From Escherichia phage pro483: 29,237 nucleotides of DNA. The notes beneath the pieces are model-generated. The model worked only from the letters and a program-made list of their open reading frames with translations, did not search any database and was not told where the DNA came from. The position numbers and the translations under genes are program-made. This document shows positions 104-22,449 of the stretch, piece by piece; the first letter of the stretch is position 1, and each line of letters starts with the position of its first letter. The stretch is from sequence record NC_028943.1; one strand, given 5' to 3'.

Positions 104-1099
104 TTATGGACGCATTATGGACATTCCTGACACCGGGTTAAGAGTCACAGCATCTTGTAAGAAATCCGGTGCAAAGTGTGCGTAGGTCATAGTTTGCTGA
201 ATGTTAGAATGACCCAGGATGCGCTGCAATGTGATTATGTTACCTCCATTCATTATAAAATGTGTGGCAAATGTATGCCTCAAAACATGTACTGCTTGTC
301 CGTCAGGTAAATCGGGTTTTACTTCCCTGAGAGCGTTACGCACTTTGTAGTAACTGGCATTAAAAAGCCTGCCTGAATTTTTGGTCTTGATCCGTTTAAT
401 CAGGTCCTGCGAAACGGGAATTGTCCTGCGTTTTCCGTTTTTAGTTTTCATAAACGTAACCATCTGGTTAATGATGTGTTCAGCTTTTAAATTAGACACT
501 TCACTCCAGCGTCCACCAGTAGAAAGGCAGACCAGAGTTGCATTTAATTCATCACCATCAAGCATGGATAACAGCCGCGTAATCTCTTCACTGGACAAAA
601 AAGCCATTTCCGTAACAGCTTCACGTAACCGTTTAATCTCACGGAACGGGTTGTGAGAGTGGTATTCACCGGCGTCAATTAACTTGGTGAACATCCCGCT
701 CATTATTGCCAGATGTCGATTTACGCTGGCTGGTTTCAGACCATCGTTCATCATTACAACGCGATAATCAGTTATCGTTTTCTTTGTTAGCTGGTCAGCT
801 CTGGACACTCCCATTTCTGCAAATTTGGCGATTATTGTCGTTAAACGCCCCCGTTCAATATCTCCACGCTCATGTGATTTTCCGTGATATATCCACCATC
901 TGCCTAACAACTCTGTAAGAGTTCGGCGGTCGGCTGGTTTCTCCAACCACTCTTTGTTGTGGTAGTTAACCAGTACATGACGTTCGAATGCTTGAGCTTC
1001 ACCTTTAGTTTTAAATTTCCGCCTGATACGTTTTCCATCTGCACCCTGCGGTCTGACGTCCACTTCATAACGACCATCATCGAGCTTTTTAATAGACAT
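104..1099 (-). CDS. int: Tyrosine-type site-specific integrase (P2 Int-like)
   Basis: 331-aa ORF; C-terminal catalytic region HxxR...Y (VLRHTFATHF...GHSNIQQTMTYAHF) typical of tyrosine recombinases; adjacent to the att repeat and co-oriented with the repressor as in P2. Confidence 0.93.
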   Translation of the reverse strand: MSIKKLDDGRYEVDVRPQGADGKRIRRKFKTKGEAQAFERHVLVNYHNKEWLEKPADRRTLTELLGRWWIYHGKSHERGDIERGRLTTIIAKFAEMGVSRADQLTKKTITDYRVVMMNDGLKPASVNRHLAIMSGMFTKLIDAGEYHSHNPFREIKRLREAVTEMAFLSSEEITRLLSMLDGDELNATLVCLSTGGRWSEVSNLKAEHIINQMVTFMKTKNGKRRTIPVSQDLIKRIKTKNSGRLFNASYYKVRNALREVKPDLPDGQAVHVLRHTFATHFIMNGGNIITLQRILGHSNIQQTMTYAHFAPDFLQDAVTLNPVSGMSIMRP

Positions 1100-1192
1100 A
1101 AAGCCCTCCGATGACGCTGTTTACTTCTACTACTTGAAAATTAATGCAATTTTCTTTCGTACATTTACTACACACATATGCTGAATAAATCG

Positions 1193-1492
1193 TCAGCCAG
1201 TCTTCTGGTCTGAGTGGTGCAAGGTTGTTGAGTCTTGCCCAATGTGTGCGAGAGCCGGGGCTATTTGTCCAGCTGCTGGATCTGTTTCATCAAACATGAA
1301 CCAGTCACGATACTTGCGAAAGCGTGGATGCTTAAACAGCTTCATACCTGCTTCCATAGGCATTTTTGATTTTCCTGATTCATATCCATGATATGTGTAG
1401 TAATTAATTCCAATCAATTCAGCAAGTTCCTTAGTTTTAAGGCGTTCGGATTCACGGATGAGCTTTAGTTTCTCACTTTGTTCACTTGACAT
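1193..1492 (-). CDS. C: Immunity repressor, P2 C-type (HTH)
   Basis: 99 aa from ATG at 1492 (the ORF track extends it from a TTG at 1510); C-terminal ...GQIAPALAHIGQD...HSDQKTG closely resembles my memory of P2 C; divergent from cox. Confidence 0.85.
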   Translation of the reverse strand: MSSEQSEKLKLIRESERLKTKELAELIGINYYTYHGYESGKSKMPMEAGMKLFKHPRFRKYRDWFMFDETDPAAGQIAPALAHIGQDSTTLHHSDQKTG

Positions 1493-1585
1493 AATTTTGC
1501 TAATCTCCAATTATATTGTTACTTGGCAATTTGTGATTCGCTCAAAAAGGCTCTAGATGGCTCCAGTTGGTGAATCGCAAATCTT
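1493..1585. promoter_or_regulatory. C/cox divergent switch region (putative Pc/Pe promoters and operator)
   Basis: 93-bp intergenic region between divergent repressor and cox; imperfect dyad ATTTGTGATTCGC (1529-1541) / GTGAATCGCAAAT (1570-1582); candidate rightward promoter TTGTGA (1531-1536) - 17 bp - TAGATG (1554-1559). Confidence 0.45.
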
Positions 1586-1957
1586 ATGGAGGATAGCAAA
1601 GTGACGACAAATGTAGAAATTTCTTGTCCAACTAGCGATGAGGCAAGTTTCGAAAATGAAGCCAAACGTAAAAGCATTCAGATTTCAGAGCGCCCATCTG
1701 ATTTGCTGTCGAAAGAAGGTTTTGCTCTTTACATCGGTAAGACACCACGCGCGGTGGCTGAAATGGCTAAAGCAGGAAAGCTGCCAGCCTTCTACATGAC
1801 AGACCCATTAAAACCAAGAGGGAAAGCTGAATTATGGATTAATCGCCGTGAGTGGGACAAGTACGCAGCCCAGCTAGTTGATGAAGCTCCGACAGAATGG
1901 CATGACTGGAAAAATCGCATTAGTTACAGCAAATCAAGACATGGCCGTGCGGCTTAA
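1586..1957 (+). CDS. cox: Cox-like excisionase / switch regulator, with N-terminal extension (start uncertain: ATG 1586 or GTG 1601)
   Basis: Core FALYIGKTPRAVAEMAKAGKLPAFYMTDP aligns with the remembered P2 Cox HTH region; GGAGGA at 1588-1593 favours GTG 1601; about 40 extra N-terminal residues relative to P2 Cox. Confidence 0.7.
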   Translation: MEDSKVTTNVEISCPTSDEASFENEAKRKSIQISERPSDLLSKEGFALYIGKTPRAVAEMAKAGKLPAFYMTDPLKPRGKAELWINRREWDKYAAQLVDEAPTEWHDWKNRISYSKSRHGRAA

Positions 1958-3449: not shown

Positions 3450-3721
3450 GTATTCGTATTGAAATTGGCGAACGTTATGTCGTTACCAGTGACAGCTTTC
3501 AGTTTATTCTCCACGAGAAAAAGAGAGCTGAAAGCGGTAAAAACGCCGGTCAGGAATGGCTGGCGGTGGTTGGTTATTACCCGAAATTAGGCCAGCTCGT
3601 TTCCGGCCTGATGCATCACGATATTCTGACCGGAAGCGCAAAATCTTTTGCTGATTTAAACGCGCAGGTTGAGCAACTCAGCAAGCGTTGTTCAGAGGCT
3701 TTTGGCTCATATGGCCGTTAA
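3446..3721 (+). CDS. Hypothetical protein (P2 orf83 position)
   Basis: 91-aa ORF overlapping the upstream stop and the gene A start. Confidence 0.6.
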   Translation: MSIRIEIGERYVVTSDSFQFILHEKKRAESGKNAGQEWLAVVGYYPKLGQLVSGLMHHDILTGSAKSFADLNAQVEQLSKRCSEAFGSYGR

Positions 3722-5882
3722 AGCCTCCGGGCGTTTTGTCCCTCCGTCAGCATTTACCGCAGGCACCGGTAAGGCGTTTACCGGTGCTTATGCATGGAAC
3801 GCGCCACGCGAGGCTGTCGGGCGCGAAAGACCTCTTACACGTGACGAGATGCGTCAGGTGCAAGGTGTTTTATCCACGATTAACCGCCTGCCTTACTTTT
3901 TGCGCTCGCTGTTTACTTCACGCTATGACTACATCCGGCGCAATAAAAGCCCGGTGCACGGGTTTTATTTCCTCACATCTACTTTTCAGCGTCGTTTATG
4001 GCCGCGCATTGAGCGTGTGAATCAGCGCCATGAAATGAACACCGACGCGTCGTTGCTGTTTCTGGCAGAGCGTGACCACTATGCGCGCCTGCCGGGAATG
4101 AATGACAAGGAGCTGAAAAAGTTTGCCGCCCGTATCTCATCGCAGCTTTTCATGATGTATGAGGAACTCTGCGATGCATGGGTTGATGCGCATGGTGAAA
4201 AAGAATCGCTGTTTACGGATGAGGCGCAGGCTCACCTGTATGGTCATGTTGCTGGCGCTGCACGTGCTTTCAATATTTCCCCGCTCTACTGGAAAAAATA
4301 CCGTAAAGGACAGATGACCACGAGGCAGGCATATTCTGCCATTGCCCGTCTGTTTAACGATGAGTGGTGGACTCATCAGCTTAAAGGCCAGCGTATGCGC
4401 TGGCATGAAGCGTTACTGATAGCTGTCGGGGAGGTCAATAAAGACCGTTCTCCTTATGCCAGTAAACACGCCATTCGTGATGTGCGTGCGCGCCGCCAGG
4501 CAAATCTGGAATTTCTTAAATCGTGTGACCTTGAAAACAGGGAAACCGGCGAGCGCATCGACCTTATCAGTAAGGTGATGGGCAGTATTTCTAATCCTGA
4601 AATTCGCCGGATGGAGCTGATGAACACCATTGCCGGTATTGAGCGTTACGCCGCTGCAGAGGGTGATGTGGGGATGTTTATCACGCTGACCGCGCCGTCA
4701 AAGTATCACCCGACACGTCAGGTAGGAAAAGGCGAAAGTAAAACCGTGCAGCTTAATCACGGCTGGAACGATGAGGCATTTAATCCAAAGGATGCGCAGC
4801 GTTATCTCTGCCGTATCTGGAGCCTGATGCGCACGGCATTCAAGGATAATGATTTACAGGTCTACGGTTTGCGTGTCGTCGAGCCACACCACGACGGAAC
4901 GCCGCACTGGCATATGATGCTTTTTTGTAATTCACGCCAGCGTAACCAGATTATCGAAATCATGCGTCGCTATGCGCTCAAAGAGGATGGCGACGAAAGA
5001 GGAGCCGCGCGAAACCGTTTTCAGGCAAAACACCTTAACCGGGGCGGTGCTGCGGGATATATCGCGAAATACATTTCAAAAAACATCGACGGCTATGCAC
5101 TGGATGGTCAGCTCGATAACGACACCGGCAGGCCGCTGAAAGACACTGCAGCGGCTGTTACCGCATGGGCGTCAACGTGGCGCATCCCGCAATTTAAAAC
5201 GGTTGGCCTGCCGACAATGGGGGCTTACCGTGAACTACGCAAATTGCCGCGCGGCGTCAGCATTGCTGATGAGTTTGACGAGCGCGTCGAGGCTGCACGC
5301 GCCGCCGCAGACAGTGGTGATTTTGCGTTGTATATCAGCGCGCAGGGTGGGGCAAATGTCCCGCGCGATTGTCAGACTGTCAGAGTCGCCCGTAGCCCGT
5401 CGGATGAAGTTAACGAGTACGAGGAAGAAGTCGAGAGAGTGGTCGGCATTTACGCGCCGCATCTCGGCGCGCGTCATATTCATATCACCAGAACGACGGA
5501 CTGGCGCATTGTTCCGAAAGTGCCGGTCGTTGAGCCTTTGACTTTAAAAAGCGGCATCGCCGCGCCTCGGAGTCCTGTCAATAACTGTGGAAAGTTCACC
5601 GGCGGTGACGTTCCGGTTATGCACCCTACACCGTCTGAGCATGCCGCAGCGGTGTTAAATCTGGTTGATAGTGGTGTTATCGGATGGGATGACCCGGAAG
5701 TTGTGACGGTGCTCAGGAGTGCATTAAAACATGGTGCACCGAGACCGAATTGGCAACAAAGAAACTGCGAACCATTAAAACCGTACCAGATAGCGCCATC
5801 AGGGCGGATGACAAAGGCTGAACGTTCGCAGATTCCACGCATCCATTTCGAGCTGGCACTAATTGGTAAAACCTATCAATAG
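3711..5882 (+). CDS. A: Replication initiation endonuclease A (rolling-circle nickase, P2 gpA)
   Basis: Start taken at ATG 3711 (MAVKASGRFVPP..., matching the remembered P2 A N-terminus); 723 aa, against about 761 aa remembered for P2 A; the 3' end abuts the AT-rich cargo. Confidence 0.9.
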   Translation: MAVKASGRFVPPSAFTAGTGKAFTGAYAWNAPREAVGRERPLTRDEMRQVQGVLSTINRLPYFLRSLFTSRYDYIRRNKSPVHGFYFLTSTFQRRLWPRIERVNQRHEMNTDASLLFLAERDHYARLPGMNDKELKKFAARISSQLFMMYEELCDAWVDAHGEKESLFTDEAQAHLYGHVAGAARAFNISPLYWKKYRKGQMTTRQAYSAIARLFNDEWWTHQLKGQRMRWHEALLIAVGEVNKDRSPYASKHAIRDVRARRQANLEFLKSCDLENRETGERIDLISKVMGSISNPEIRRMELMNTIAGIERYAAAEGDVGMFITLTAPSKYHPTRQVGKGESKTVQLNHGWNDEAFNPKDAQRYLCRIWSLMRTAFKDNDLQVYGLRVVEPHHDGTPHWHMMLFCNSRQRNQIIEIMRRYALKEDGDERGAARNRFQAKHLNRGGAAGYIAKYISKNIDGYALDGQLDNDTGRPLKDTAAAVTAWASTWRIPQFKTVGLPTMGAYRELRKLPRGVSIADEFDERVEAARAAADSGDFALYISAQGGANVPRDCQTVRVARSPSDEVNEYEEEVERVVGIYAPHLGARHIHITRTTDWRIVPKVPVVEPLTLKSGIAAPRSPVNNCGKFTGGDVPVMHPTPSEHAAAVLNLVDSGVIGWDDPEVVTVLRSALKHGAPRPNWQQRNCEPLKPYQIAPSGRMTKAERSQIPRIHFELALIGKTYQ

Positions 5883-5985
5883 TGATTTAATGAAATTTCG
5901 GAGTCATAAATATTGTGTATTTAACTAGATGATTGCAATATAAGTGCTTATTATTTATGCGATTATAGCCATAACGGAGCTGAGT

Positions 5986-6915
5986 ATGAGTGTTGCAAGG
6001 CATCATCATTTTTTATCCCAATGTTATTTGAAAGGGTTTACAAGTAATGGGGGGAAAAAATCAAAATTAACTGTAATAGATTTAAAGGAGCGCAAAACCT
6101 TTGAGAGTAATACTCGCAATGTCGGGGGGGTTAGAGATTTCAACCGATTAGAATTGGATGGAGTTGACCCAAACTATCTCGAGAGTTCTCTTGCAGAGTT
6201 TGAAGGCAGTGTCGCTACTCATTTAAGAAAACTTGAGGAGGGGGGCGAGTTTTCAGGCGAAACCAAAGATGTTATTCTGGAGTTTATTTCCTTATTGGCA
6301 ATACGTACGCCTGCTCAGCGAGAACATTTATCATCTCCATTGAAACAAATAGCAAAGTTTATCATGAAATCCTCAGTTAGTTCGGCTGAGCGTTGGGACG
6401 ATTGCAAATTAGCTTATGAGAAAGAAATGGGTGAGTCTTTGCCATATGATCTCGCTTACGAAAAAATTAAAAATTTTGTGGATGGGGATAATTTCGAAAT
6501 CAATGTAATCAGAGAGTTCATGATAGATATGGAAATGAAATGTGTACCTGTTATCACCAAGTTGTTGCATCAACGCAACTGGTCACTTATGACCATATCT
6601 GATGGGCAAGGGTCATTTATAACTTCAGATAACCCAGTTTGCTTAATGTGGACTAATCCTGAATTAGCACGAGGCCCTTATTCCCCCGGGTTTGGTGTAA
6701 AAGACACTTTAGTTTTGTTCCCAGTATCAAAAAACCTTCTTTTGGCGGGCGAGTTTGATGGTCATGAGGGTGTATTCAGTTGTAATGAGGAGCAGGCTGC
6801 GGTCTTCAATACTTCAGTCATTCGGCATACCGCAGAAAGAATATTTTCATCTAATGATAATTTCAAATTTTTAGACTCATCTAAAAAAATGAAGCAAGGC
6901 AAAAGCCTGGTTTGA
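5986..6915 (+). CDS. Cargo gene in the P2 tin/old hotspot: DUF4238-like protein, candidate single-gene anti-phage defence
   Basis: 309 aa from ATG 5986 (GGAG 6 nt upstream); N-terminal HHFLSQCYLKGFT and internal FITSDNPVCLMW resemble the DUF4238 (PF14022) signature from memory; strongly AT-rich against GC-rich flanks; located between A and cos. Confidence 0.75.
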   Translation: MSVARHHHFLSQCYLKGFTSNGGKKSKLTVIDLKERKTFESNTRNVGGVRDFNRLELDGVDPNYLESSLAEFEGSVATHLRKLEEGGEFSGETKDVILEFISLLAIRTPAQREHLSSPLKQIAKFIMKSSVSSAERWDDCKLAYEKEMGESLPYDLAYEKIKNFVDGDNFEINVIREFMIDMEMKCVPVITKLLHQRNWSLMTISDGQGSFITSDNPVCLMWTNPELARGPYSPGFGVKDTLVLFPVSKNLLLAGEFDGHEGVFSCNEEQAAVFNTSVIRHTAERIFSSNDNFKFLDSSKKMKQGKSLV

Positions 6916-7130
6916 TAGCGGTTTTTCTATGATTTTACTAGGAGAATTCTACCCTTAATCAGTGTGTTTAAAATGATTAATTGTCATAACATTTTTTCAT
7001 TTTTAGGTGTGCCTAGAAATGCATTCAATTGCATGCGTTTTCCTCCCCTGTTGCGTCTGAGCGCCACCAGTGCCGGCGCGCCTCCGGTGTATTCGTGCAC
7101 CTGCATTAAAACCGACCCATAAAGCGGGCA

Positions 7131-7149
7131 GGCGAGGCGGGGATAGCAC
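7131..7149. other. cos: cos site (cohesive-end sequence), ggcgaggcggggatagcac
   Basis: One mismatch to the remembered P2 19-nt cohesive end GGCGAGGCGGGGAAAGCAC; correct position between the cargo locus and Q. Confidence 0.7.
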
Positions 7150-7290
7150 TGCGCGCTGGCGGTGGTGCTGATTTTATTTTTTCAGCGTCTGAGCGCGTCG
7201 TGATGGCGTTTAGATTGTTCGCCGGGGCGTTGGTGTGTCTGCGGGATGTTTTGTGCGGTGGTGAGCGTGTGAGGGCGTGATGACAGGGTG

Positions 7291-7312
7291 TAAAAAGCCG
7301 CCCGCAGGCGGC
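7291..7312 (-). terminator. Rho-independent terminator downstream of Q (minus strand)
   Basis: GCCGCC-cgca-GGCGGC hairpin (7297-7312) followed on the minus strand by a T-run (complement of AAAAA 7292-7296), immediately after the Q stop. Confidence 0.6.
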
Positions 7313-7317
7313 GATGT

Positions 7318-8352
7318 TCAGCCGTTGTCAGTGTCCAGTGAGTAGTTTTTAAAGCGGATGACCTCCTGACCGAGCCAGCCGTTTATTTCCCGAATCCTGT
7401 CCTGTAACGGGATAAGCTCATTGCGGACAAAGACCTTTGCCACTTTCTCAATATCACCCAGCGACCCGACGTTCTCCGGCTTGCCGCCCATCAACTGAAA
7501 GGGGATGCGGTGCGCGTCCAGCAGGTCAGCGGCGCTGGCTTTTTTGATATTAAAAAAATCGTCCTTCGTTGCCACTTCACTGAGCGGGATAATTTTAATG
7601 CCGTCGGCTTTCCCCTGCGGGGCATAGAGAAACAGATTTTTAAAGTTGTTGCGGCCTTTCGACTTGACCATGTTTTCGCGAAGCATTTCGATATCGTTGC
7701 GATCCTGCACGGCATCGGTGACGTACATGATATATCCGGCATGAGCGCCGTTTTCGTAATACTTGCGGCGGAACAGCGTGGCCGACTCATTCAGCCAGGC
7801 AGAATTAAGGGCGCTGAGATATTCCGGCAGGCCGTACAGCTCCTGATTAATATCCGGCTCCAGCAGGTGAAACACGGAGCCGGGCGCGAAGGCTGTCGGC
7901 TCGTTGAAGGACGGCACCCACCAGTAAACATCCTCCTCCACGCCACGGCGGGTATATTTTGCCGGTGAGGTTTCCAGTCTGATGACCTTACCGGTGGTGC
8001 TGTAACGCTTTTCCAGAAACGCATTACCGAACACCAGAAAATCCAGCACAAAGCGGCTGAAATCCTGCTGGGAAAGCCACGGGTGCGGAATAAACGTTGA
8101 AGCCAGAATATTACGTTTGACGTAAATCGGTGAGCTGTGATGTACGGCAGCACGCAGGCTTTTTGCCAGACCGGTAAAGCTGACCGGTGGCTCATACCAT
8201 CTGCCGTTACTGATGCACTCGACGTAATCCAGAATGTCACGGCGGTCGAGTACCGGCACCGGTTCACCAAAGGTGAATGCCTCCATTTTCGGGGCGCTGG
8301 CGGTCATTTTTTTTGCCGCAGGTTGCGGTGTTTTCCCTTTTTTCTTGCTCAT
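7318..8352 (-). CDS. Q: Portal protein (P2 gpQ)
   Basis: 344 aa; position and orientation as P2 Q; start overlaps the P stop (ATGA). Confidence 0.93.
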   Translation of the reverse strand: MSKKKGKTPQPAAKKMTASAPKMEAFTFGEPVPVLDRRDILDYVECISNGRWYEPPVSFTGLAKSLRAAVHHSSPIYVKRNILASTFIPHPWLSQQDFSRFVLDFLVFGNAFLEKRYSTTGKVIRLETSPAKYTRRGVEEDVYWWVPSFNEPTAFAPGSVFHLLEPDINQELYGLPEYLSALNSAWLNESATLFRRKYYENGAHAGYIMYVTDAVQDRNDIEMLRENMVKSKGRNNFKNLFLYAPQGKADGIKIIPLSEVATKDDFFNIKKASAADLLDAHRIPFQLMGGKPENVGSLGDIEKVAKVFVRNELIPLQDRIREINGWLGQEVIRFKNYSLDTDNG

Positions 8353-16053: not shown

Positions 16054-16498
16054 GTTTAAGCGTTTTGAAGACCGGCTGACCGGACTGATTGAGTCGCTGT
16101 CACCGTCAGGGCGTCGGCGACTGAGCGCCGAACTGGCGAAACGTCTGCGTCAGAGTCAGCAGCGCCGGGTGATGGCACAGAAAGCCCCGGACGGCACACC
16201 CTACGCACCACGCCAGCAGCAGAGCGCCAGAAAAAAGACCGGTCGCGTTAAGCGAAAAATGTTTGCGAAACTTATCACCAGTCGTTTTTTGCATATCCGC
16301 GCCAGCCCGGAGCAGGCATCAATGGAGTTTTACGGCGGGAAGTCGCCGAAAATCGCCAGTGTGCATCAGTTCGGTCTGTCGGAAGAAAACCGGAAAGACG
16401 GTAAGAAAATTGATTATCCGGCGCGTCCTCTGCTCGGCTTTACCGGTGAGGATGTGCAGATGATTGAAGAGATTATCCTGGCTCACCTCGACCGTTAG
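16046..16498 (+). CDS. S: Tail completion protein S
   Basis: 150 aa, same as P2 S; overlaps the R stop. Confidence 0.85.
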   Translation: MNEFKRFEDRLTGLIESLSPSGRRRLSAELAKRLRQSQQRRVMAQKAPDGTPYAPRQQQSARKKTGRVKRKMFAKLITSRFLHIRASPEQASMEFYGGKSPKIASVHQFGLSEENRKDGKKIDYPARPLLGFTGEDVQMIEEIILAHLDR

Positions 16499-16564
16499 TT
16501 GTGCCATTCCCGACACCTCATCGGCACATTGCCGCCGGTATGACCCGGCGGCATCCTTCCCGTT
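16499..16564 (+). promoter_or_regulatory. S/V intergenic region with dyad and hairpin (expected late promoter for the V operon)
   Basis: TGTGCC (16500-16505) ... GGCACA (16523-16528) inverted repeat; perfect 8-bp stem GCCGCCGG-tatgac-CCGGCGGC (16531-16552) 13 bp upstream of the V ATG. Confidence 0.4.
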
Positions 16565-17200
16565 ATGAACACTCTCGCAAATATTCAGGAACTCGCGCGC
16601 GCACTGCGCAACATGATCCGCACCGGCATTATCGTCGAAACCGACCTTAACGCCGGTCGCTGCCGTGTGCAGACCGGCGGCATGTGCACCGACTGGCTTC
16701 AGTGGCTGACCCATCGCGCCGGACGTTCGCGCACATGGTGGGCACCTTCCGTGGGGGAACAGGTGCTGATTCTGGCCGTGGGCGGTGAACTCGACACGGC
16801 GTTCGTTCTGCCGGGGATTTATTCCGGCGATAACCCCGCGCCGTCTGCGTCGGCGGATGCCCTGCATATCCGTTTCCCTGACGGGGCGGTGATTGAGTAT
16901 GAACCCGAAACCAGTGCACTCACGGTAAGCGGAATTAAAACGGCCAGCGTGACGGCTTCTGATTCTGTTACTGCCACGGTGCCGGTGGTCATGGTGAAAG
17001 CGTCAACCCGCATCACCCTGGACACCCCGGAGGTGGTCTGCACCAACAGACTGATTACCGGCACGCTGGAAGTGCAGAAGGGCGGGACGATGCGCGGCAA
17101 CATTAAACATACCGGCGGTGAACTCTCATCAAACGGTAAGGTACTGCATACCCATAAACACCCCGGCGACAGCGGCGGCACAACCGGGAGTCCTCTATGA
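16565..17200 (+). CDS. V: Baseplate spike / assembly protein V
   Basis: 211 aa, same as P2 V. Confidence 0.9.
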   Translation: MNTLANIQELARALRNMIRTGIIVETDLNAGRCRVQTGGMCTDWLQWLTHRAGRSRTWWAPSVGEQVLILAVGGELDTAFVLPGIYSGDNPAPSASADALHIRFPDGAVIEYEPETSALTVSGIKTASVTASDSVTATVPVVMVKASTRITLDTPEVVCTNRLITGTLEVQKGGTMRGNIKHTGGELSSNGKVLHTHKHPGDSGGTTGSPL

Positions 17201-18457: not shown

Positions 18458-19061
18458 TTCGCGCCTGCTGCCGACCGGCTCATCACCGCTTGAAGTTGCC
18501 GCCGCAAAAGCCTGTGCGGAAATTGAAAAAACGCCGGTCAGTATTCGTGAGCTGTGGAACCCGGACACCTGCCCGGCAAATCTGCTGCCGTGGCTGGCGT
18601 GGTCATTTTCGGTTGACCGCTGGGATGATAAGTGGCCGGAAGCGACAAAACGCGCTGTTATCCGCGATGCGTATTTCATTCACTGCCATAAGGGCACTAT
18701 TGGTGCGATTCGCCGTGTGGTGGAGCCGCTCGGCTATCTGATTGAGGTGAGGGAGTGGTGGCAGCTCAACGAGGAGCCGGGGACGTTCCGCATCGTTGTT
18801 GGCGTGCTTGAGCAGGGTATTACCGAGGAAATGTATCAGGAGCTGGAGCGTCTCGTTGCTGATGCAAAACCTGCAAGCCGCCATCTGACGGGACTGGCTA
18901 TCAGTTTAAGTACAACCGGCAACATTTTTGCCGGTGCGGGATGCTATCACGGCGACGCCCTGACGGTTTATCCCTACACCCCGGAGGCCATTATTGTCGG
19001 AGGGGATTATTTCCCGGCCTCGGCCATTCATTTAATTGATAACCTGAGAGTAAACGCATGA
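18450..19061 (+). CDS. I: Baseplate / tail protein I
   Basis: 203 aa (P2 I is about 176 aa from memory); overlaps J and H in the operon. Confidence 0.85.
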   Translation: MSDSRLLPTGSSPLEVAAAKACAEIEKTPVSIRELWNPDTCPANLLPWLAWSFSVDRWDDKWPEATKRAVIRDAYFIHCHKGTIGAIRRVVEPLGYLIEVREWWQLNEEPGTFRIVVGVLEQGITEEMYQELERLVADAKPASRHLTGLAISLSTTGNIFAGAGCYHGDALTVYPYTPEAIIVGGDYFPASAIHLIDNLRVNA

Positions 19062-20257
19062 CAGTGAAATACTACGCCATTCTGACTAATCAGGGCGCGG
19101 CACGGCTGGCTAACGCGACGATGCTCGGCAGTAAGCTGAATCTGACGCAAATGGCCGTTGGTGATGCAAATGGTGTGTTACCAACACCAGACCCTGCACA
19201 AACAAAACTGATTAACCAGAAACGCATTGCACCGCTGAATCTTCTGAGTGTTGACCCGAATAACCAGAGCCAGATTATTGCGGAGCAAATCATCCCTGAG
19301 AACGAGGGCGGATTCTGGATCCGTGAGATTGGGCTTTATGATGATGAAGGCGTACTCATTGCGGTGGCAAACTGCCCGGAAACGTACAAACCGCAGTTGC
19401 AGGAAGGAAGCGGTCGTACCCAGACTATCCGCATGATTCTGGTTGTCTCGAATACCGAAGCCATCACGCTGAAAATCGATCCGTCGGTGGTACTGGCGAC
19501 CCGTAAATACGTGGATGATGAAGTCCTGGAATTAAGGCTGTATGTGGATGACCAGATGAGAAACCACATTGCCGCACAGGATCCTCATACCCAGTATGCA
19601 CAGAAACATAATCCGACATTTACCGGAGAACCAAAAGCGCCGACGCCTGCCGCAGGAAATAACACCACGCGGATTGCGACCACTGCGTTTGTTCAGGCCG
19701 CTATTACCGCTCTGATTAACGGTGCGCCAGCCACGCTGGACACACTGAAAGAAATTGCCGCAGCCATTAACAATGACCCGAAATTCAGCACCACCATTAA
19801 CAATGCGCTGTCAGGTAAGCAGCCACTGGATGAGACGCTGACTCATTTGAGCGGAAAGGATGTTGCCGGCCTTCTCGCATACCTTGGTTTGGGAGAAGCG
19901 GCAAAACGGGATGTAGGGACAGGGGAAAATCAGATACCGGACATGGCCTCGTTTGCCAGTGGTGATGGATGGATGAAATTACCCAACGGGAAAATCCTGC
20001 AATATGGTCGTGGTGCGGTTACGCCGACATTATCGACGCAAACAATGAGAATTACATTCAGCATCCCTTTTCCTAAAAAAGTGGACTGCGCCATGCTTAC
20101 TCATTCTGGTGATGGTGGTGCGCCTTTAGGTGCTGGGCGGGGATTCGTGATGACCGCAGAAGGCCCAACATTAACCGGTTTTAATTCTGCTTACAGAACG
20201 TCATCAACCAGCGACACGGTATCGATGAATTACAGTTGGTGGGCTGTTGGTGAGTAA
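19058..20257 (+). CDS. H: Tail fibre protein H (constant N-terminal part plus currently expressed variable C-terminal module Hv)
   Basis: 399 aa; N-terminus MTVKYYAILTNQGAARLANA... is P2 H-like; a 26-bp recombination site sits in-frame at codons LAYLGLGE (19872-19897). Confidence 0.9.
   Translation: MTVKYYAILTNQGAARLANATMLGSKLNLTQMAVGDANGVLPTPDPAQTKLINQKRIAPLNLLSVDPNNQSQIIAEQIIPENEGGFWIREIGLYDDEGVLIAVANCPETYKPQLQEGSGRTQTIRMILVVSNTEAITLKIDPSVVLATRKYVDDEVLELRLYVDDQMRNHIAAQDPHTQYAQKHNPTFTGEPKAPTPAAGNNTTRIATTAFVQAAITALINGAPATLDTLKEIAAAINNDPKFSTTINNALSGKQPLDETLTHLSGKDVAGLLAYLGLGEAAKRDVGTGENQIPDMASFASGDGWMKLPNGKILQYGRGAVTPTLSTQTMRITFSIPFPKKVDCAMLTHSGDGGAPLGAGRGFVMTAEGPTLTGFNSAYRTSSTSDTVSMNYSWWAVGE
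19872..19897. repeat. Left crossover site for the DNA invertase (gix/hix/cix-like), TTCTCGCATACC-TT-GGTTTGGGAGAA
   Basis: 26-bp pseudo-palindrome resembling hixL/gix sites (TTxTC..AAACC / GGTTT..GAxAA); inverted relative to the site at 21775-21800 with the GGTTTGGGAGAA half identical. Confidence 0.65.
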
Positions 20258-20277
20258 TTTTATTCAGGGTGATTTAT

Positions 20278-20721
20278 ATGAACGAATATGTTTATAGCGC
20301 AAGGCATAATGCTTTTTTCCCTGTGGATATGATTGATAAATATAAATCAGAGGGATGGGATTTATCAGACGCTAAGGAAGTAAATCAAAATATTATCAGT
20401 GAGTTTATGGCTGAACCGCCACAAGGAAAAATCCGTATTGCCGGAGATGATGGGCTGCCTGCGTGGGCAGATATTCCTCCACCCACGCATGAAGAGCTTA
20501 TTGAAATTACTGAATCAGAAAGACAGCTACTAATTAACCAGGCCAACGAATACATGAACAGTAAGCAATGGCCCGGTAAAGCCGCTATTGGTCGTCTGAA
20601 AGGTGAGGAACTGGCGCAATATAATTTGTGGCTGGATTATCTGGATGCACTGGAGCTGGTTGATACCTCCAGTGCACCAGATATTGAATGGCCTACGCCT
20701 CCGGCAGTTCAGGCCAGATGA
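20278..20721 (+). CDS. G: Tail fibre assembly chaperone G (orientation currently expressed)
   Basis: 147 aa from ATG 20278 (the ORF track starts at GTG 20269); C-terminus ...LWLDYLDALELVDTSSAPDIEWPTPP resembles the conserved tail-fibre-assembly C-terminal motif; AT-rich 5' half. Confidence 0.8.
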   Translation: MNEYVYSARHNAFFPVDMIDKYKSEGWDLSDAKEVNQNIISEFMAEPPQGKIRIAGDDGLPAWADIPPPTHEELIEITESERQLLINQANEYMNSKQWPGKAAIGRLKGEELAQYNLWLDYLDALELVDTSSAPDIEWPTPPAVQAR

Positions 20722-21295
20722 CATCCGGCGCGGTGCTGGTATCTGTTGCCGTCACCGCGTCAATGTAATCCAGCACAGCGTTAAGTCTGGTTGTTTCTGC
20801 CTGCGTCAACTTCCGTCCGGCCTGTAATTTCAGCTGAATCAGACTAATGGAAGCCATTGCTGCATCAATCAGTGACTGGCGCTGTGCTTCTGCCGCGTCT
20901 ACTGCGGCACTATGCTGTGCCTCAGTATCCGTCACCCATTTCTCACCATCCCATTTATCATATGGCGTTAACGGGGCGATAGTGGTTGTATTTTCAGGGT
21001 AATCACCCGGAGCTGTGATTTCTTTCGATTCTCCTGTTTCGGTGCTATAGATGATTTCACCGCGATGGTCTGGCACATATTCCCATGAGTTAAAATCTGC
21101 AGAACGGCAGATTGCATAACCAGCTTTGTATGCGCCTGGGGCATCTAAACAGGAATATGCCGGAATGCCGACACCAATAGCAAGATATTCAGTTGAGGCT
21201 GAAATATATTCCCAACTCATGACATCAAAGTTATAAACAGTAATTTCTCCTGCCATAGTGGCAATTAATTCACTGTTTAATTCTGCGTTATTCAT
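20693..21295 (-). CDS. Alternative tail fibre assembly chaperone G' (partner of Hv')
   Basis: 200 aa on the opposite strand; C-terminus ...LNAVLDYIDAVTATDTSTAPDVIWPELPEA shares the motif with G; converges tail-to-tail with G (29-bp overlap). Confidence 0.8.
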   Translation of the reverse strand: MNNAELNSELIATMAGEITVYNFDVMSWEYISASTEYLAIGVGIPAYSCLDAPGAYKAGYAICRSADFNSWEYVPDHRGEIIYSTETGESKEITAPGDYPENTTTIAPLTPYDKWDGEKWVTDTEAQHSAAVDAAEAQRQSLIDAAMASISLIQLKLQAGRKLTQAETTRLNAVLDYIDAVTATDTSTAPDVIWPELPEA

Positions 21296-21786
21296 TATGC
21301 AGCCCTCACAATATAGTTAAAAGCGACATTTCGTGGGCGTGTTTCATTCGCACCTGCAGGTTTAGTCGTTGCCGCAACAACACCACCCTCTGTAATAGCC
21401 GGGTTGGGAATTGGGTAATTATCGAAGTCAATGGCCGGAGACAGGGGCTTGATTTGTTTTAAAATCGTGGTGCCTGTAAAACTTTCCAGAGTCTGGTCGT
21501 TAGTTCGTGAAGTCCAGATTCCCCAATAGTGGTTATGACTGACAATCGCACCGTCCTGAAGCGTTAATAATCCCCTTCCGTTATCCACTCCACGCCCATC
21601 ATCCCAGCCACGAATAAACTCACCGCGTAAATCAGGCAATTTATTTGTCGGGTAAACCTTTGCCAGTTCCGGGTATTCTTCAGCAGAAAAAGCCGCCCCG
21701 TTGCATTTCAGCCAGCCTGTCGGCGGAGTGGCTGAAGGCCACGGAACAGGCACACCGACGGGTAATGCCGAACCTTCTCCCAAACC
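21295..21786 (-). CDS. Alternative tail-fibre C-terminal module Hv' (promoterless; fused to the H constant region only after inversion)
   Basis: ORF of 177 aa on the track, but the functional part starts at the crossover (codons GLGE at 21775-21786); contains a tail-collar-like motif (WLKCNGAAFSAEEYPELAKVY...LPDLRGEF); same codon phase as H across the shared GGTTTGGGAGAA. Confidence 0.7.
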   Translation of the reverse strand, partial: GLGEGSALPVGVPVPWPSATPPTGWLKCNGAAFSAEEYPELAKVYPTNKLPDLRGEFIRGWDDGRGVDNGRGLLTLQDGAIVSHNHYWGIWTSRTNDQTLESFTGTTILKQIKPLSPAIDFDNYPIPNPAITEGGVVAATTKPAGANETRPRNVAFNYIVRAA

Positions 21787-21800
21787 AACGTTTATGAAAA
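21775..21800. repeat. Right crossover site for the DNA invertase, TTCTCCCAAACC-AA-CGTTTATGAAAA
   Basis: Reverse complement TTTTCATAAACG-TT-GGTTTGGGAGAA shares the full right half with the left site; lies 56 bp upstream of the invertase start. Confidence 0.65.
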
Positions 21801-21855
21801 TGCAGAGATAACGGGTAACTGGCATCATCTCCGGTTTTTATTCAGGGGGATGCTC

Positions 21856-22449
21856 ATGCTTATTGGCTATGTACGCGTGTCAACAAATGACCAGAACACG
21901 GAATTGCAGCGTAACGCGCTGGAGTGCGCAGGATGTGAGCTGATTTTTGAGGATAAAATCAGCGGCACTAAGTCCGACCGACCGGGACTGAAAAAACTGC
22001 TCAGGACATTATCGGAGGGGGATACACTGGTGGTCTGGAAGCTGGACAGGCTGGGGCGTAATATGCGGCATCTGGTCATTCTGGTTGAGGAACTGCGCGA
22101 ACGCGGCGTTAATTTTCGCAGCCTGACGGATGCTATTGATACCAGCACGCCGATGGGGCGTTTTTTCTTTCATGTGATGGGTGCCCTGGCTGAAATGGAA
22201 CGAGAACTCATTGTCGAGCGGACTCGGGCCGGGCTGGAAGCGGCCAGAGCCAAAGGTCGTATTGGTGGCAGACGTCCTAAACTCTCCACGAGTGAGTGGG
22301 AGCAGGCCGGGCGTTTGCTGGCTGCAGGGGAGTCACGTCAACGCGTGGCACTGATTTTTGATATTGGTCTGTCCACGCTCTATAAAAAATTCCCCTCATC
22401 AGCGACAAAGAATAAATTGTGTCATCCCTTAACCAACCGGGACAAATAG
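21856..22449 (+). CDS. Serine DNA invertase (Gin/Pin/Hin/Cin family)
   Basis: N-terminus MLIGYVRVSTNDQNTELQRNAL... with catalytic serine context and C-terminal HTH, closely resembling Gin/Pin; start at ATG 21856 (GGGGGA Shine-Dalgarno spacing fits better than ATG 21850). Confidence 0.9.
   Translation: MLIGYVRVSTNDQNTELQRNALECAGCELIFEDKISGTKSDRPGLKKLLRTLSEGDTLVVWKLDRLGRNMRHLVILVEELRERGVNFRSLTDAIDTSTPMGRFFFHVMGALAEMERELIVERTRAGLEAARAKGRIGGRRPKLSTSEWEQAGRLLAAGESRQRVALIFDIGLSTLYKKFPSSATKNKLCHPLTNRDK

What the first reader, a model, noticed from the sequence alone, without database searches (positions are those of the whole stretch)
5780..5890. Gene A ends early, at the cargo junction
The A product here is 723 aa, whereas I remember P2 A as about 761 aa. 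The last residues (HFELALIGKTYQ) run straight into AT-rich cargo DNA, suggesting that cargo acquisition replaced the native 3' end of A. This would mark the left insertion boundary and may alter the A C-terminus.
Basis: partly seen in the sequence, partly recalled or inferred. Interest (0 to 1): 0.4.

Follow-up and report, generated by a model that had tools for sequence, protein, structure and literature searches.

The report
Defence cassette clips phage replication gene
In this P2-like prophage, a small anti-phage gene cassette is joined inside the 3' end of the replication gene A, replacing its last 45 codons with 7 new ones; this is an extreme case of ordinary cargo swapping at a known phage hotspot.

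Summary
Gene A (window 3711-5882, +) encodes 723 aa, and P2 A encodes 761 aa. Homology to every other P2-like A gene stops at about 5860 (codon 717). The last seven codons and the TAG-TGA stops come from the left end of an AT-rich cassette of about 1.16 kb (5862 to about 7020). The cassette carries one DUF4238 defence gene and sits in the known gpA-gpQ/cos hotspot. The same cassette, with the same left edge, occurs in Citrobacter and Enterobacter P2 remnants joined to a different A remnant.

In 77 other close relatives A is 744-766 aa, with 42 distinct C-terminal tails across the 81 loci. All 77 keep a conserved helix-helix-hairpin module that is broken only in the 723-aa allele. Two independent deeper truncations exist in other genera.

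The truncated A is probably still functional, though this is inferred and not shown:
- The catalytic core and ori are intact.
- The prophage is otherwise complete.
- The allele is intact in 14 E. coli genomes, in at least three mosaic backbones at two att sites.
- Phage 186 A lacks the module.

More generally, the A 3' region is linked to the cargo from the ori nick onward, so the swapped unit runs from ori to cos. This is a modest variant of a known phenomenon.

The parts
3711..5882 (+). Gene A, the rolling-circle replication initiator (gpA), as a 723-aa C-terminally truncated allele.
   Evidence: ORF and translation. Pfam Phage_GPA 1.3e-123 over residues 133-462. 94-95% identical to P2, S164 and FSL SP-004 A over residues 1-719. 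Y450/Y454 and the HHDGTPHWH motif are invariant in the alignment. The exact protein is AKH49370.1 of phage pro483.
5550..5590 (+). ori core inside gene A. The P2 nick site (P2 position 29892) maps to about window 5569.
   Evidence: The P2 record annotates the nick at 29892, which maps by register to window 5569. This stretch is 99.9% identical across 81 loci and 30 of 30 identical to five relatives.
5590..5859 (+). Variable post-ori part of A (codons about 627-716). It is a native A sequence, but an allele that travels with the cargo.
   Evidence: Identity to relatives drops to 60-90% here. Pairs of loci with the same cargo are 95.8% identical here, against 88.6% for pairs with different cargo, while the A 5' part is 97.3% in both groups. 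pN/pS is 0.26, against 0.04 in the core.
5860..5882 (+). Junction. The last 6-7 codons of A (L/I-G-K-T-Y-Q) and the TAG stop (followed by TGA) are supplied by the cassette.
   Evidence: Homology to A genes ends at 5859. Homology to cassette copies in Citrobacter and Enterobacter begins at 5862 in all 10 loci.
5862..7020 (+). AT-rich cargo cassette of about 1.16 kb in the gpA-gpQ/cos hotspot.
   Evidence: GC 0.38-0.40 against 0.52-0.58 in the flanks. The right edge is where homology to other P2-like prophages resumes (query position 1421 = window 7020). The cassette is 84.5-85.9% identical in other genera.
5986..6915 (+). DUF4238 gene (309 aa), a single-gene anti-phage system.
   Evidence: Pfam PF14022 4.2e-39. 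PADLOC DUF4238-Pers 1.5e-219, full length 1-309 of 309. RefSeq WP_001515549.1. A DUF4238 protein from this P2 hotspot gave strong resistance to T7 (PMC9122126).
7131..7149 (+). cos cohesive-end sequence GGCGAGGCGGGGATAGCAC, with one mismatch to P2.
   Evidence: blastn of the P2 cos region and direct reading of the sequence.
7318..8352 (-). Portal gene Q, the right flank of the hotspot, with the tQ terminator at 7297-7312.
   Evidence: 99.4% identical to P2 Q. Terminator scan.

Best explanation
The window is a complete P2-like prophage. It runs from attL to attR between pflA and pflB, and its A protein is identical to that of phage pro483.

In the known defence hotspot between gene A and cos/Q, a DUF4238 cassette of about 1.16 kb is joined inside the A reading frame at codon 717 by a non-homologous join. 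The join replaced the native last 45 codons of A, the orf91-type gene that often follows A, and any earlier cargo. The cassette's own left end now supplies 6-7 codons and a double stop.

The cut keeps the first helix (P2 residues 702-717) of a small, confidently predicted C-terminal module. It removes the second helix and the beta-hairpin, which carry the nearly invariant residues W725, E726, L730, R732 and G733.

Inferred, not shown: the shortened A still works as the replication initiator. The HUH/two-tyrosine core and the ori are untouched, and the post-ori tail is an accessory region under weak constraint.

Shown more generally: in P2-like phages the unit that is swapped with the cargo starts at the ori nick inside A, not at the A stop codon. 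The A C-terminus therefore hitch-hikes with the cargo and is frequently rewritten.
For: Breakpoint:
- Protein and DNA alignments lose homology at about 5860.
- No remnant of the lost module is found anywhere in the window.
- The GC content steps down at the junction.
- The cassette edge at 5862 is defined independently by 10 Citrobacter and Enterobacter loci, where the cassette adjoins a different A remnant.

Hotspot and cargo identity.

Rarity and the wider pattern:
- 77 of 77 other close relatives are 744-766 aa and keep the W-E-L..L.RG motif; there are 42 distinct last-8 tails across the 81 loci.
- Representatives across Enterobacteriaceae are mostly 752-779 aa; the few shorter ones examined (731-740 aa) differ at the N-terminal start call and keep the C-terminal motif.
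- Independent truncations occur at about residue 682 (P0087, on at least 5 contigs) and about residue 709 (P0027), each directly followed by other cargo.

Structure: residues 700-749 are predicted with pLDDT of roughly 87-90, as helix 702-717, helix 724-731 and a hairpin at 735-744.

Functionality (inference):
- Every essential P2 gene is full length in the window.
- PGAP annotates the 723-aa A as intact.
- The module is at least 99% identical in 14 complete genomes. It is present in at least three mosaic prophage backbones at two att sites (yegS/yegR and pflA/pflB), in hosts whose flanking DNA differs by 0.6-2.2%.
- 39-44 substitutions separate the 723-aa alleles, with pN/pS of 0.06-0.07 and no disruption.
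- pN/pS is 0.33 in the lost module against 0.04 in the core.
- Phage 186 A (694 aa) shares no homology beyond the ori and lacks the module.

Linkage: same-cargo and different-cargo pairs are equally similar up to codon 623 and diverge from codon 624 onward.
Against: - None of the roughly 75 isolated or sequenced close P2-like phages in the phage collection has a truncated A; all keep the module. Viability of a phage with this allele is therefore not demonstrated here.
- The module carries residues conserved at 90% or more across Enterobacteriaceae and is still under purifying selection (pN/pS 0.33), so it does something.
- In Citrobacter and Enterobacter the same cassette sits in degraded prophage remnants.
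- The low pN/pS among the 723-aa alleles could be imported by recombination from functional full-length alleles: all differences lie in codons 13-617 and none in 618-723.
- Transfer between backbones could occur by prophage-prophage recombination without a lytic cycle, since some genomes carry two P2-like prophages.
- The breakpoint is resolved only to a few nucleotides, because GGTA at 5865-5868 also matches native A by chance.
Confidence: 0.8

Rival explanations
1. The prophage is replication-defective. The truncation inactivated A, and the element persists as a cryptic carrier of the DUF4238 defence gene. It is maintained by host-level selection and spread by vertical descent and prophage-prophage recombination.
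For: No isolated phage in the collection carries a truncated A. The lost module has nearly invariant residues. The same cassette sits in degraded P2 remnants in other genera. Several carrier genomes have two P2-like prophages that could recombine.
Against: All other essential genes are intact and 91-100% identical to P2, apart from a naturally different tail-fibre module. A stays open in every copy despite 39-44 substitutions, with pN/pS of 0.06-0.07. The module occurs in at least three mosaic backbones, at two att sites, and in hosts from pigs, poultry, humans and water on three continents. Phage 186 replicates with an A that lacks this module. The exact protein was deposited as a phage record, pro483, although how that record was obtained could not be checked.
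Confidence: 0.2
2. The early stop arose in place, through a nonsense or frameshift mutation in a native full-length A gene, and the AT-rich DNA downstream is simply the usual intergenic or cargo DNA.
For: GGTA at 5865-5868 and a few scattered bases still match native A.
Against: Downstream of 5862 there is chance-level identity to native A 3' ends in every frame, and tblastn with the P2 C-terminus finds nothing in the window. The stretch 5862-5882 belongs to the cassette, as seen in other genera where it is not part of A at all.
Confidence: 0.03
3. 723 aa is ordinary length variation, and the 761-aa figure applies only to P2 itself.
For: A lengths do vary (744-766 aa in close relatives, up to 779 aa in other genera), and the tails are hypervariable.
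Against: No other close relative is shorter than 744 aa, and all keep the motif that is missing here.
Confidence: 0.02

Closest known systems
Bacteriophage P2 gpA (NP_046795, 761 aa), the cis-acting rolling-circle initiator with ori inside its own gene.
   Same: 94% identical over residues 1-719. It has the same Phage_GPA domain, the same Y450/Y454 and HHDGTPHWH motifs, and an identical ori core.
   Different: It lacks P2 residues 717-761, which include the second helix and the hairpin of the C-terminal module, and ends in 6-7 cassette-encoded residues. The following orf91 (DUF3850/ASCH), tin and old are absent.
The P2 gpA-gpQ (cos-proximal) defence hotspot, also called the 'TO region' (Odegrip 2006; Rousset et al. 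2022, PMC9122126; NAR 2026, PMC13586616).
   Same: Same position, between A and cos/Q. The cargo is a single DUF4238 gene, one of the systems validated from this hotspot (against T7).
   Different: The papers I could read define the locus as the genes lying between gpA and gpQ. Here the junction lies inside gpA, and linkage with the cargo starts at the ori nick. I found no statement of this in those texts, and Odegrip 2006 could not be retrieved.
Phage 186 A protein (NP_052289, 694 aa).
   Same: A GPA-family initiator with ori inside the gene. It is a viable phage whose A has only 83 residues after the nick.
   Different: Only 37% identical. Its post-ori tail is unrelated in sequence, so it is not a truncation of the P2-type module.
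Other truncated P2-type A alleles: P0087 (684 aa; an NCBI Klebsiella aerogenes assembly and a metagenome scaffold) and P0027 (which ends at about P2 residue 709).
   Same: A stops early inside the post-ori region and is followed directly by foreign cargo, in otherwise P2-like early regions.
   Different: They have different breakpoints and different cargo (a DUF676/CTD8 + MC4 + AAA_23 set, and three unannotated genes), so they are independent events.

Membership tests
Phage_GPA (PF05840), the P2 gpA-type rolling-circle replication initiators | Significant match to the family profile across the catalytic domain. | tested here: met
   Pfam PF05840, E = 1.3e-123, residues 133-462 covering profile positions 1-321 of 321.
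Phage_GPA (PF05840), the P2 gpA-type rolling-circle replication initiators | Two catalytic tyrosines (P2 Y450 and Y454, named from my own knowledge of Odegrip & Haggard-Ljungquist 2001) and the histidine-rich metal-binding motif. | tested here: met
   GYIAKYISKNIDGY and EPHHDGTPHWH are invariant between the window, P2, S164 and FSL SP-004 and across 88 sequences. Catalysis itself was not tested.
Phage_GPA (PF05840), the P2 gpA-type rolling-circle replication initiators | ori, with the nick site, located inside the gene's own coding sequence. | tested here: met
   The P2 nick site at 29892 maps to window position about 5569, in a stretch identical to relatives.
Phage_GPA (PF05840), the P2 gpA-type rolling-circle replication initiators | Complete P2-type C-terminal module (helix, helix, hairpin; W725 E726 L730 R732 G733). 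This is a feature of the P2 subgroup, not of the whole family. | tested here: not met
   The module is missing after residue 716-719. It is also absent from 186 A, so it does not define family membership.
P2 gpA-gpQ defence hotspot cargo | Located between gpA and gpQ, adjacent to cos, with composition and content that vary between otherwise similar phages. | tested here: met
   The cassette spans 5862-7020, cos lies at 7131-7149 and Q at 7318-8352. Other relatives carry different DNA at this position.
DUF4238 single-gene defence system (PADLOC DUF4238-Pers, Pfam PF14022) | Full-length match to the defence-system profile. | tested here: met
   PADLOC PDLC03000, E = 1.5e-219, 1-309 of 309. Pfam PF14022, E = 4.2e-39.
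DUF4238 single-gene defence system (PADLOC DUF4238-Pers, Pfam PF14022) | Confers phage resistance. | not testable with these tools
   Resistance to T7 was reported for a DUF4238 protein cloned from this P2 hotspot (PMC9122126). I could not confirm that the clone is identical to this gene.

The most novel reading that the evidence does not exclude
The cos-proximal hotspot of P2-like phages is bounded by the two programmed DNA breaks of the lytic cycle: the gpA nick at ori on the left and the terminase cut at cos on the right. On this reading, the breaks themselves (nick-primed or end-primed recombination and illegitimate joining), and not merely the last stretch of conserved homology, drive cargo turnover. 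That would explain why linkage with the cargo starts within about 30 nt of the nick, why A remnants in other genera break immediately after the ori core, and why A tails are repeatedly rewritten or clipped. A weaker variant is that the A C-terminal module is functionally matched to the cargo.
Probability: 0.2. Interest if true: 0.6.

Novelty: new variant of a known kind. Interest (0 to 1): 0.3.

Why it matters
This case shows that defence-gene turnover in the P2 hotspot reaches into an essential gene. It gives a natural deletion series (about residues 682, 709 and 717), which suggests the last 45-80 residues of gpA may be dispensable and points to a small conserved module of unknown role. It also moves the effective left boundary of the hotspot to the replication origin. 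This matters for surveys that delimit hotspots by gene borders, and for engineering P2-type vectors or cargo swaps.

Tried and rejected
- I searched the window for a displaced remnant of the missing A 3' end using tblastn with the P2 C-terminus. Nothing was found.
- The full-length AlphaFold model of gpA was poor (mean pLDDT 53) and was used only for the C-terminal segment.
- The junction DNA has no unusual secondary structure (z = 0.23).
- The promoter scan found nothing above chance upstream of DUF4238.
- Odegrip et al. 2006, which first described this variable locus, is not held in the library. I could not check whether it already notes the boundary inside A.
- The pro483 genome record is not in the phage collection, and the papers that mention it give no data on induction or plaques.
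- An in-place nonsense mutation and ordinary length variation were both considered and rejected (see the rival explanations).

Full report
**What is there**

The window is a complete P2-like prophage.
- Every essential P2 gene is present at full length: Q, P, O, N, M, L, X, Y, K, R, S, V, W, J, I, FI, FII, E, T, U, D, ogr, B and A. They are 82-100% identical to P2.
- The int-C-cox module is only 35-53% identical to P2.
- The ends of the window align with the edges of a prophage inserted between pflA and pflB in E. coli TOK-001.
- Gene A occupies 3711-5882 (+) and encodes 723 aa ending ...RIHFELALIGKTYQ, followed by TAG TGA.
- P2 A is 761 aa, S164 A is 761 aa and FSL SP-004 A is 756 aa.

**The breakpoint**

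- Protein and DNA alignments with P2, S164, FSL SP-004 and the closest full-length relatives (L007, L008) are in register up to window position about 5859. Beyond that they fall to chance.
- GC content drops from 0.53-0.58 to 0.38-0.40 at this point.
- The missing C-terminus is not found anywhere else in the window.
- The downstream gene (5986-6915) is a DUF4238 protein. It is a full-length match to PADLOC DUF4238-Pers (1.5e-219) and to Pfam PF14022.
- Homology to other P2-like phages resumes at about 7020. It is followed by cos at 7131-7149 and the portal gene Q.
- This is the known gpA-gpQ/cos defence hotspot. A DUF4238 gene from that hotspot was shown to protect against T7 (PMC9122126; see also PMC13586616).

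**Independent definition of the cassette edge**

Near-identical DUF4238 proteins occur in Citrobacter freundii, Enterobacter hormaechei and E. ludwigii, inside degraded P2-like remnants. In all ten loci fetched, DNA homology to the window (84.5-85.9%) starts at 5862 and runs through cos. Upstream of the cassette, the A remnant in those loci breaks right after the ori core (..SPVNNCG) and continues into unrelated sequence. Three conclusions follow:
- The stretch ATTGGTAAAACCTATCAATAG (5862-5882) belongs to the cassette.
- In the window, this stretch happens to be read in the A frame as I-G-K-T-Y-Q-stop.
- The join replaced native codons 717-761.

**How unusual it is**

- In 81 loci, 77 other alleles are 744-766 aa and all retain a W-E-L-x-x-L-x-R-G motif. 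These 81 loci comprise the window, three phage records, one E. coli chromosome locus (H41) and 76 of the 80 IMG/VR relatives in which the A 3' end could be read. Only the window, that E. coli chromosome (H41) and two IMG/VR contigs carry the 723-aa form.
- The last eight residues fall into 42 different types. Rewriting of the extreme A tail by cargo exchange is therefore routine, and this case is the deepest cut among close relatives.
- Representatives across Enterobacteriaceae are mostly 752-779 aa. The few shorter ones examined (731-740 aa) owe their length to different N-terminal start calls and keep the C-terminal motif.
- Two independent C-terminal truncations turned up. P0087 (684 aa; at least 5 contigs, including a Klebsiella aerogenes assembly and a metagenome scaffold) is followed by a DUF676/CTD8 + MC4 + AAA_23 set. 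P0027 ends at about P2 residue 709 and is followed by unannotated genes.
- The exact junction is found in 8 IMG/VR contigs and in 14 of 5426 complete E. coli genomes. That is 14 of the 1605 genomes with any match to the query, or roughly 1% of P2-like loci.

**What was lost**

AlphaFold on the C-terminal 126 residues of a full-length relative (28-sequence alignment, mean pLDDT 77) predicts three parts:
- a helical pair at residues 641-675;
- a low-confidence linker;
- a confident module with pLDDT of roughly 87-90 for residues ~706-745: helix 702-717, helix 724-731 and a hairpin at 735-744, followed by a disordered hypervariable tail.

The window allele keeps the first helix only. W725, E726, L730, R732 and G733 are conserved at 90% or more in 88 sequences. 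Fold searches gave no credible match, so the module's role is unknown.

**Is the shortened A functional? (inference)**

Evidence for:
- The Phage_GPA domain, the two tyrosines, the histidine motif and the ori are intact.
- PGAP calls the gene intact.
- The A(723)-DUF4238 module, at 99% identity or more, sits in at least three mosaic prophage genomes. These have different int/immunity modules, different tail fibres and different other cargo. They occupy two attachment sites (yegS/yegR and pflA/pflB). Their hosts come from pigs, poultry, water and humans, and the flanking host DNA differs by 0.6-2.2%.
- The 723-aa alleles differ by 39-44 substitutions with pN/pS of 0.06-0.07.
- Constraint on the lost module is about 8-fold weaker than on the core: pN/pS is 0.33 against 0.04.
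- Phage 186 A shares nothing with P2 A beyond the ori and has only 83 post-nick residues.
- The exact protein is the replication protein of the GenBank phage record pro483.

Evidence against:
- None of the roughly 75 close P2-like phages in the phage collection has a truncated A.
- The low pN/pS may be imported by recombination, because all differences lie upstream of codon 618.
- The provenance of pro483 could not be checked.

I put the probability that the shortened A is functional at about 0.7.

**A broader pattern**

Among 3240 pairs of loci, those sharing the same downstream cargo are no more alike than other pairs in A codons 114-613 (97.3% in both groups). In codons 629-718, however, they are much more alike: 95.8% against 88.6%. 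A 30-nt sliding comparison places the onset of this linkage at codon 624, immediately after the ori core, which is itself 99.9% identical in all loci. The 723-aa alleles show the same pattern: they are identical from codon 618 to the stop and diverged upstream. The exchanged unit is therefore ori-to-cos, and the A C-terminus is effectively part of the cassette.

The simplest cause is that the ori core is the last stretch with enough identity for homologous crossover. A more interesting possibility, which is untested, is that the gpA nick and the cos cut themselves stimulate exchange.

**Verdict**

The hotspot and its cargo are already known. What is new is modest:
- a junction that invades an essential gene;
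- a natural deletion series of the gpA tail;
- the ori as the effective left boundary of the hotspot.

Noticed in passing
window 19058-22449: In place of P2 H-G-fun(Z) there is what looks like an invertible tail-fibre segment. It comprises a tail fibre gene (19058-20257), a tail-fibre assembly gene (20269-20721), an oppositely oriented alternative fibre C-terminus (21295-21828, minus strand) with its own assembly gene (20693-21295, minus strand), and a serine invertase (21850-22449; Resolvase + HTH_7, 1.8e-52).
   Followed up: partly
L011 7942-8070, L037 6208-6336, L067 7935-8063: Three IMG/VR P2-like loci carry a second, diverged (38% identical) 'ghost' copy of the A C-terminal module about 190 nt downstream of the A stop codon. 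It looks like a footprint of an earlier cargo swap that brought another A 3' end along with it.
   Followed up: no
L006 7061-8353 (between window positions 7156 and 7177): One carrier of the same A(723)-DUF4238 module has a 1.29-kb insertion a few bases to the right of cos. Its content was not examined; it may be an IS element or further cargo.
   Followed up: no
window 104-1957: The integrase, C repressor and cox are only 53%, 51% and 35% identical to those of P2, and the prophage sits between pflA and pflB. The same A-DUF4238 module also occurs with a P2-type 337-aa integrase at yegS/yegR.
   Followed up: partly
window 16495-16565: The P2 orf30 locus between S and V is empty here (a gap of about 70 nt). 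The related TOK-001 prophage carries a 246-aa hypothetical gene at that position.
   Followed up: no
L099 3276-3869; L096 2999-3394: In Enterobacter and Citrobacter, the DUF4238 cassette lies in degraded P2 remnants. The A remnant there diverges immediately after the ori core (..SPVNNCG), then runs through 34 unrelated codons to a stop. This is a second case of a break at ori.
   Followed up: partly
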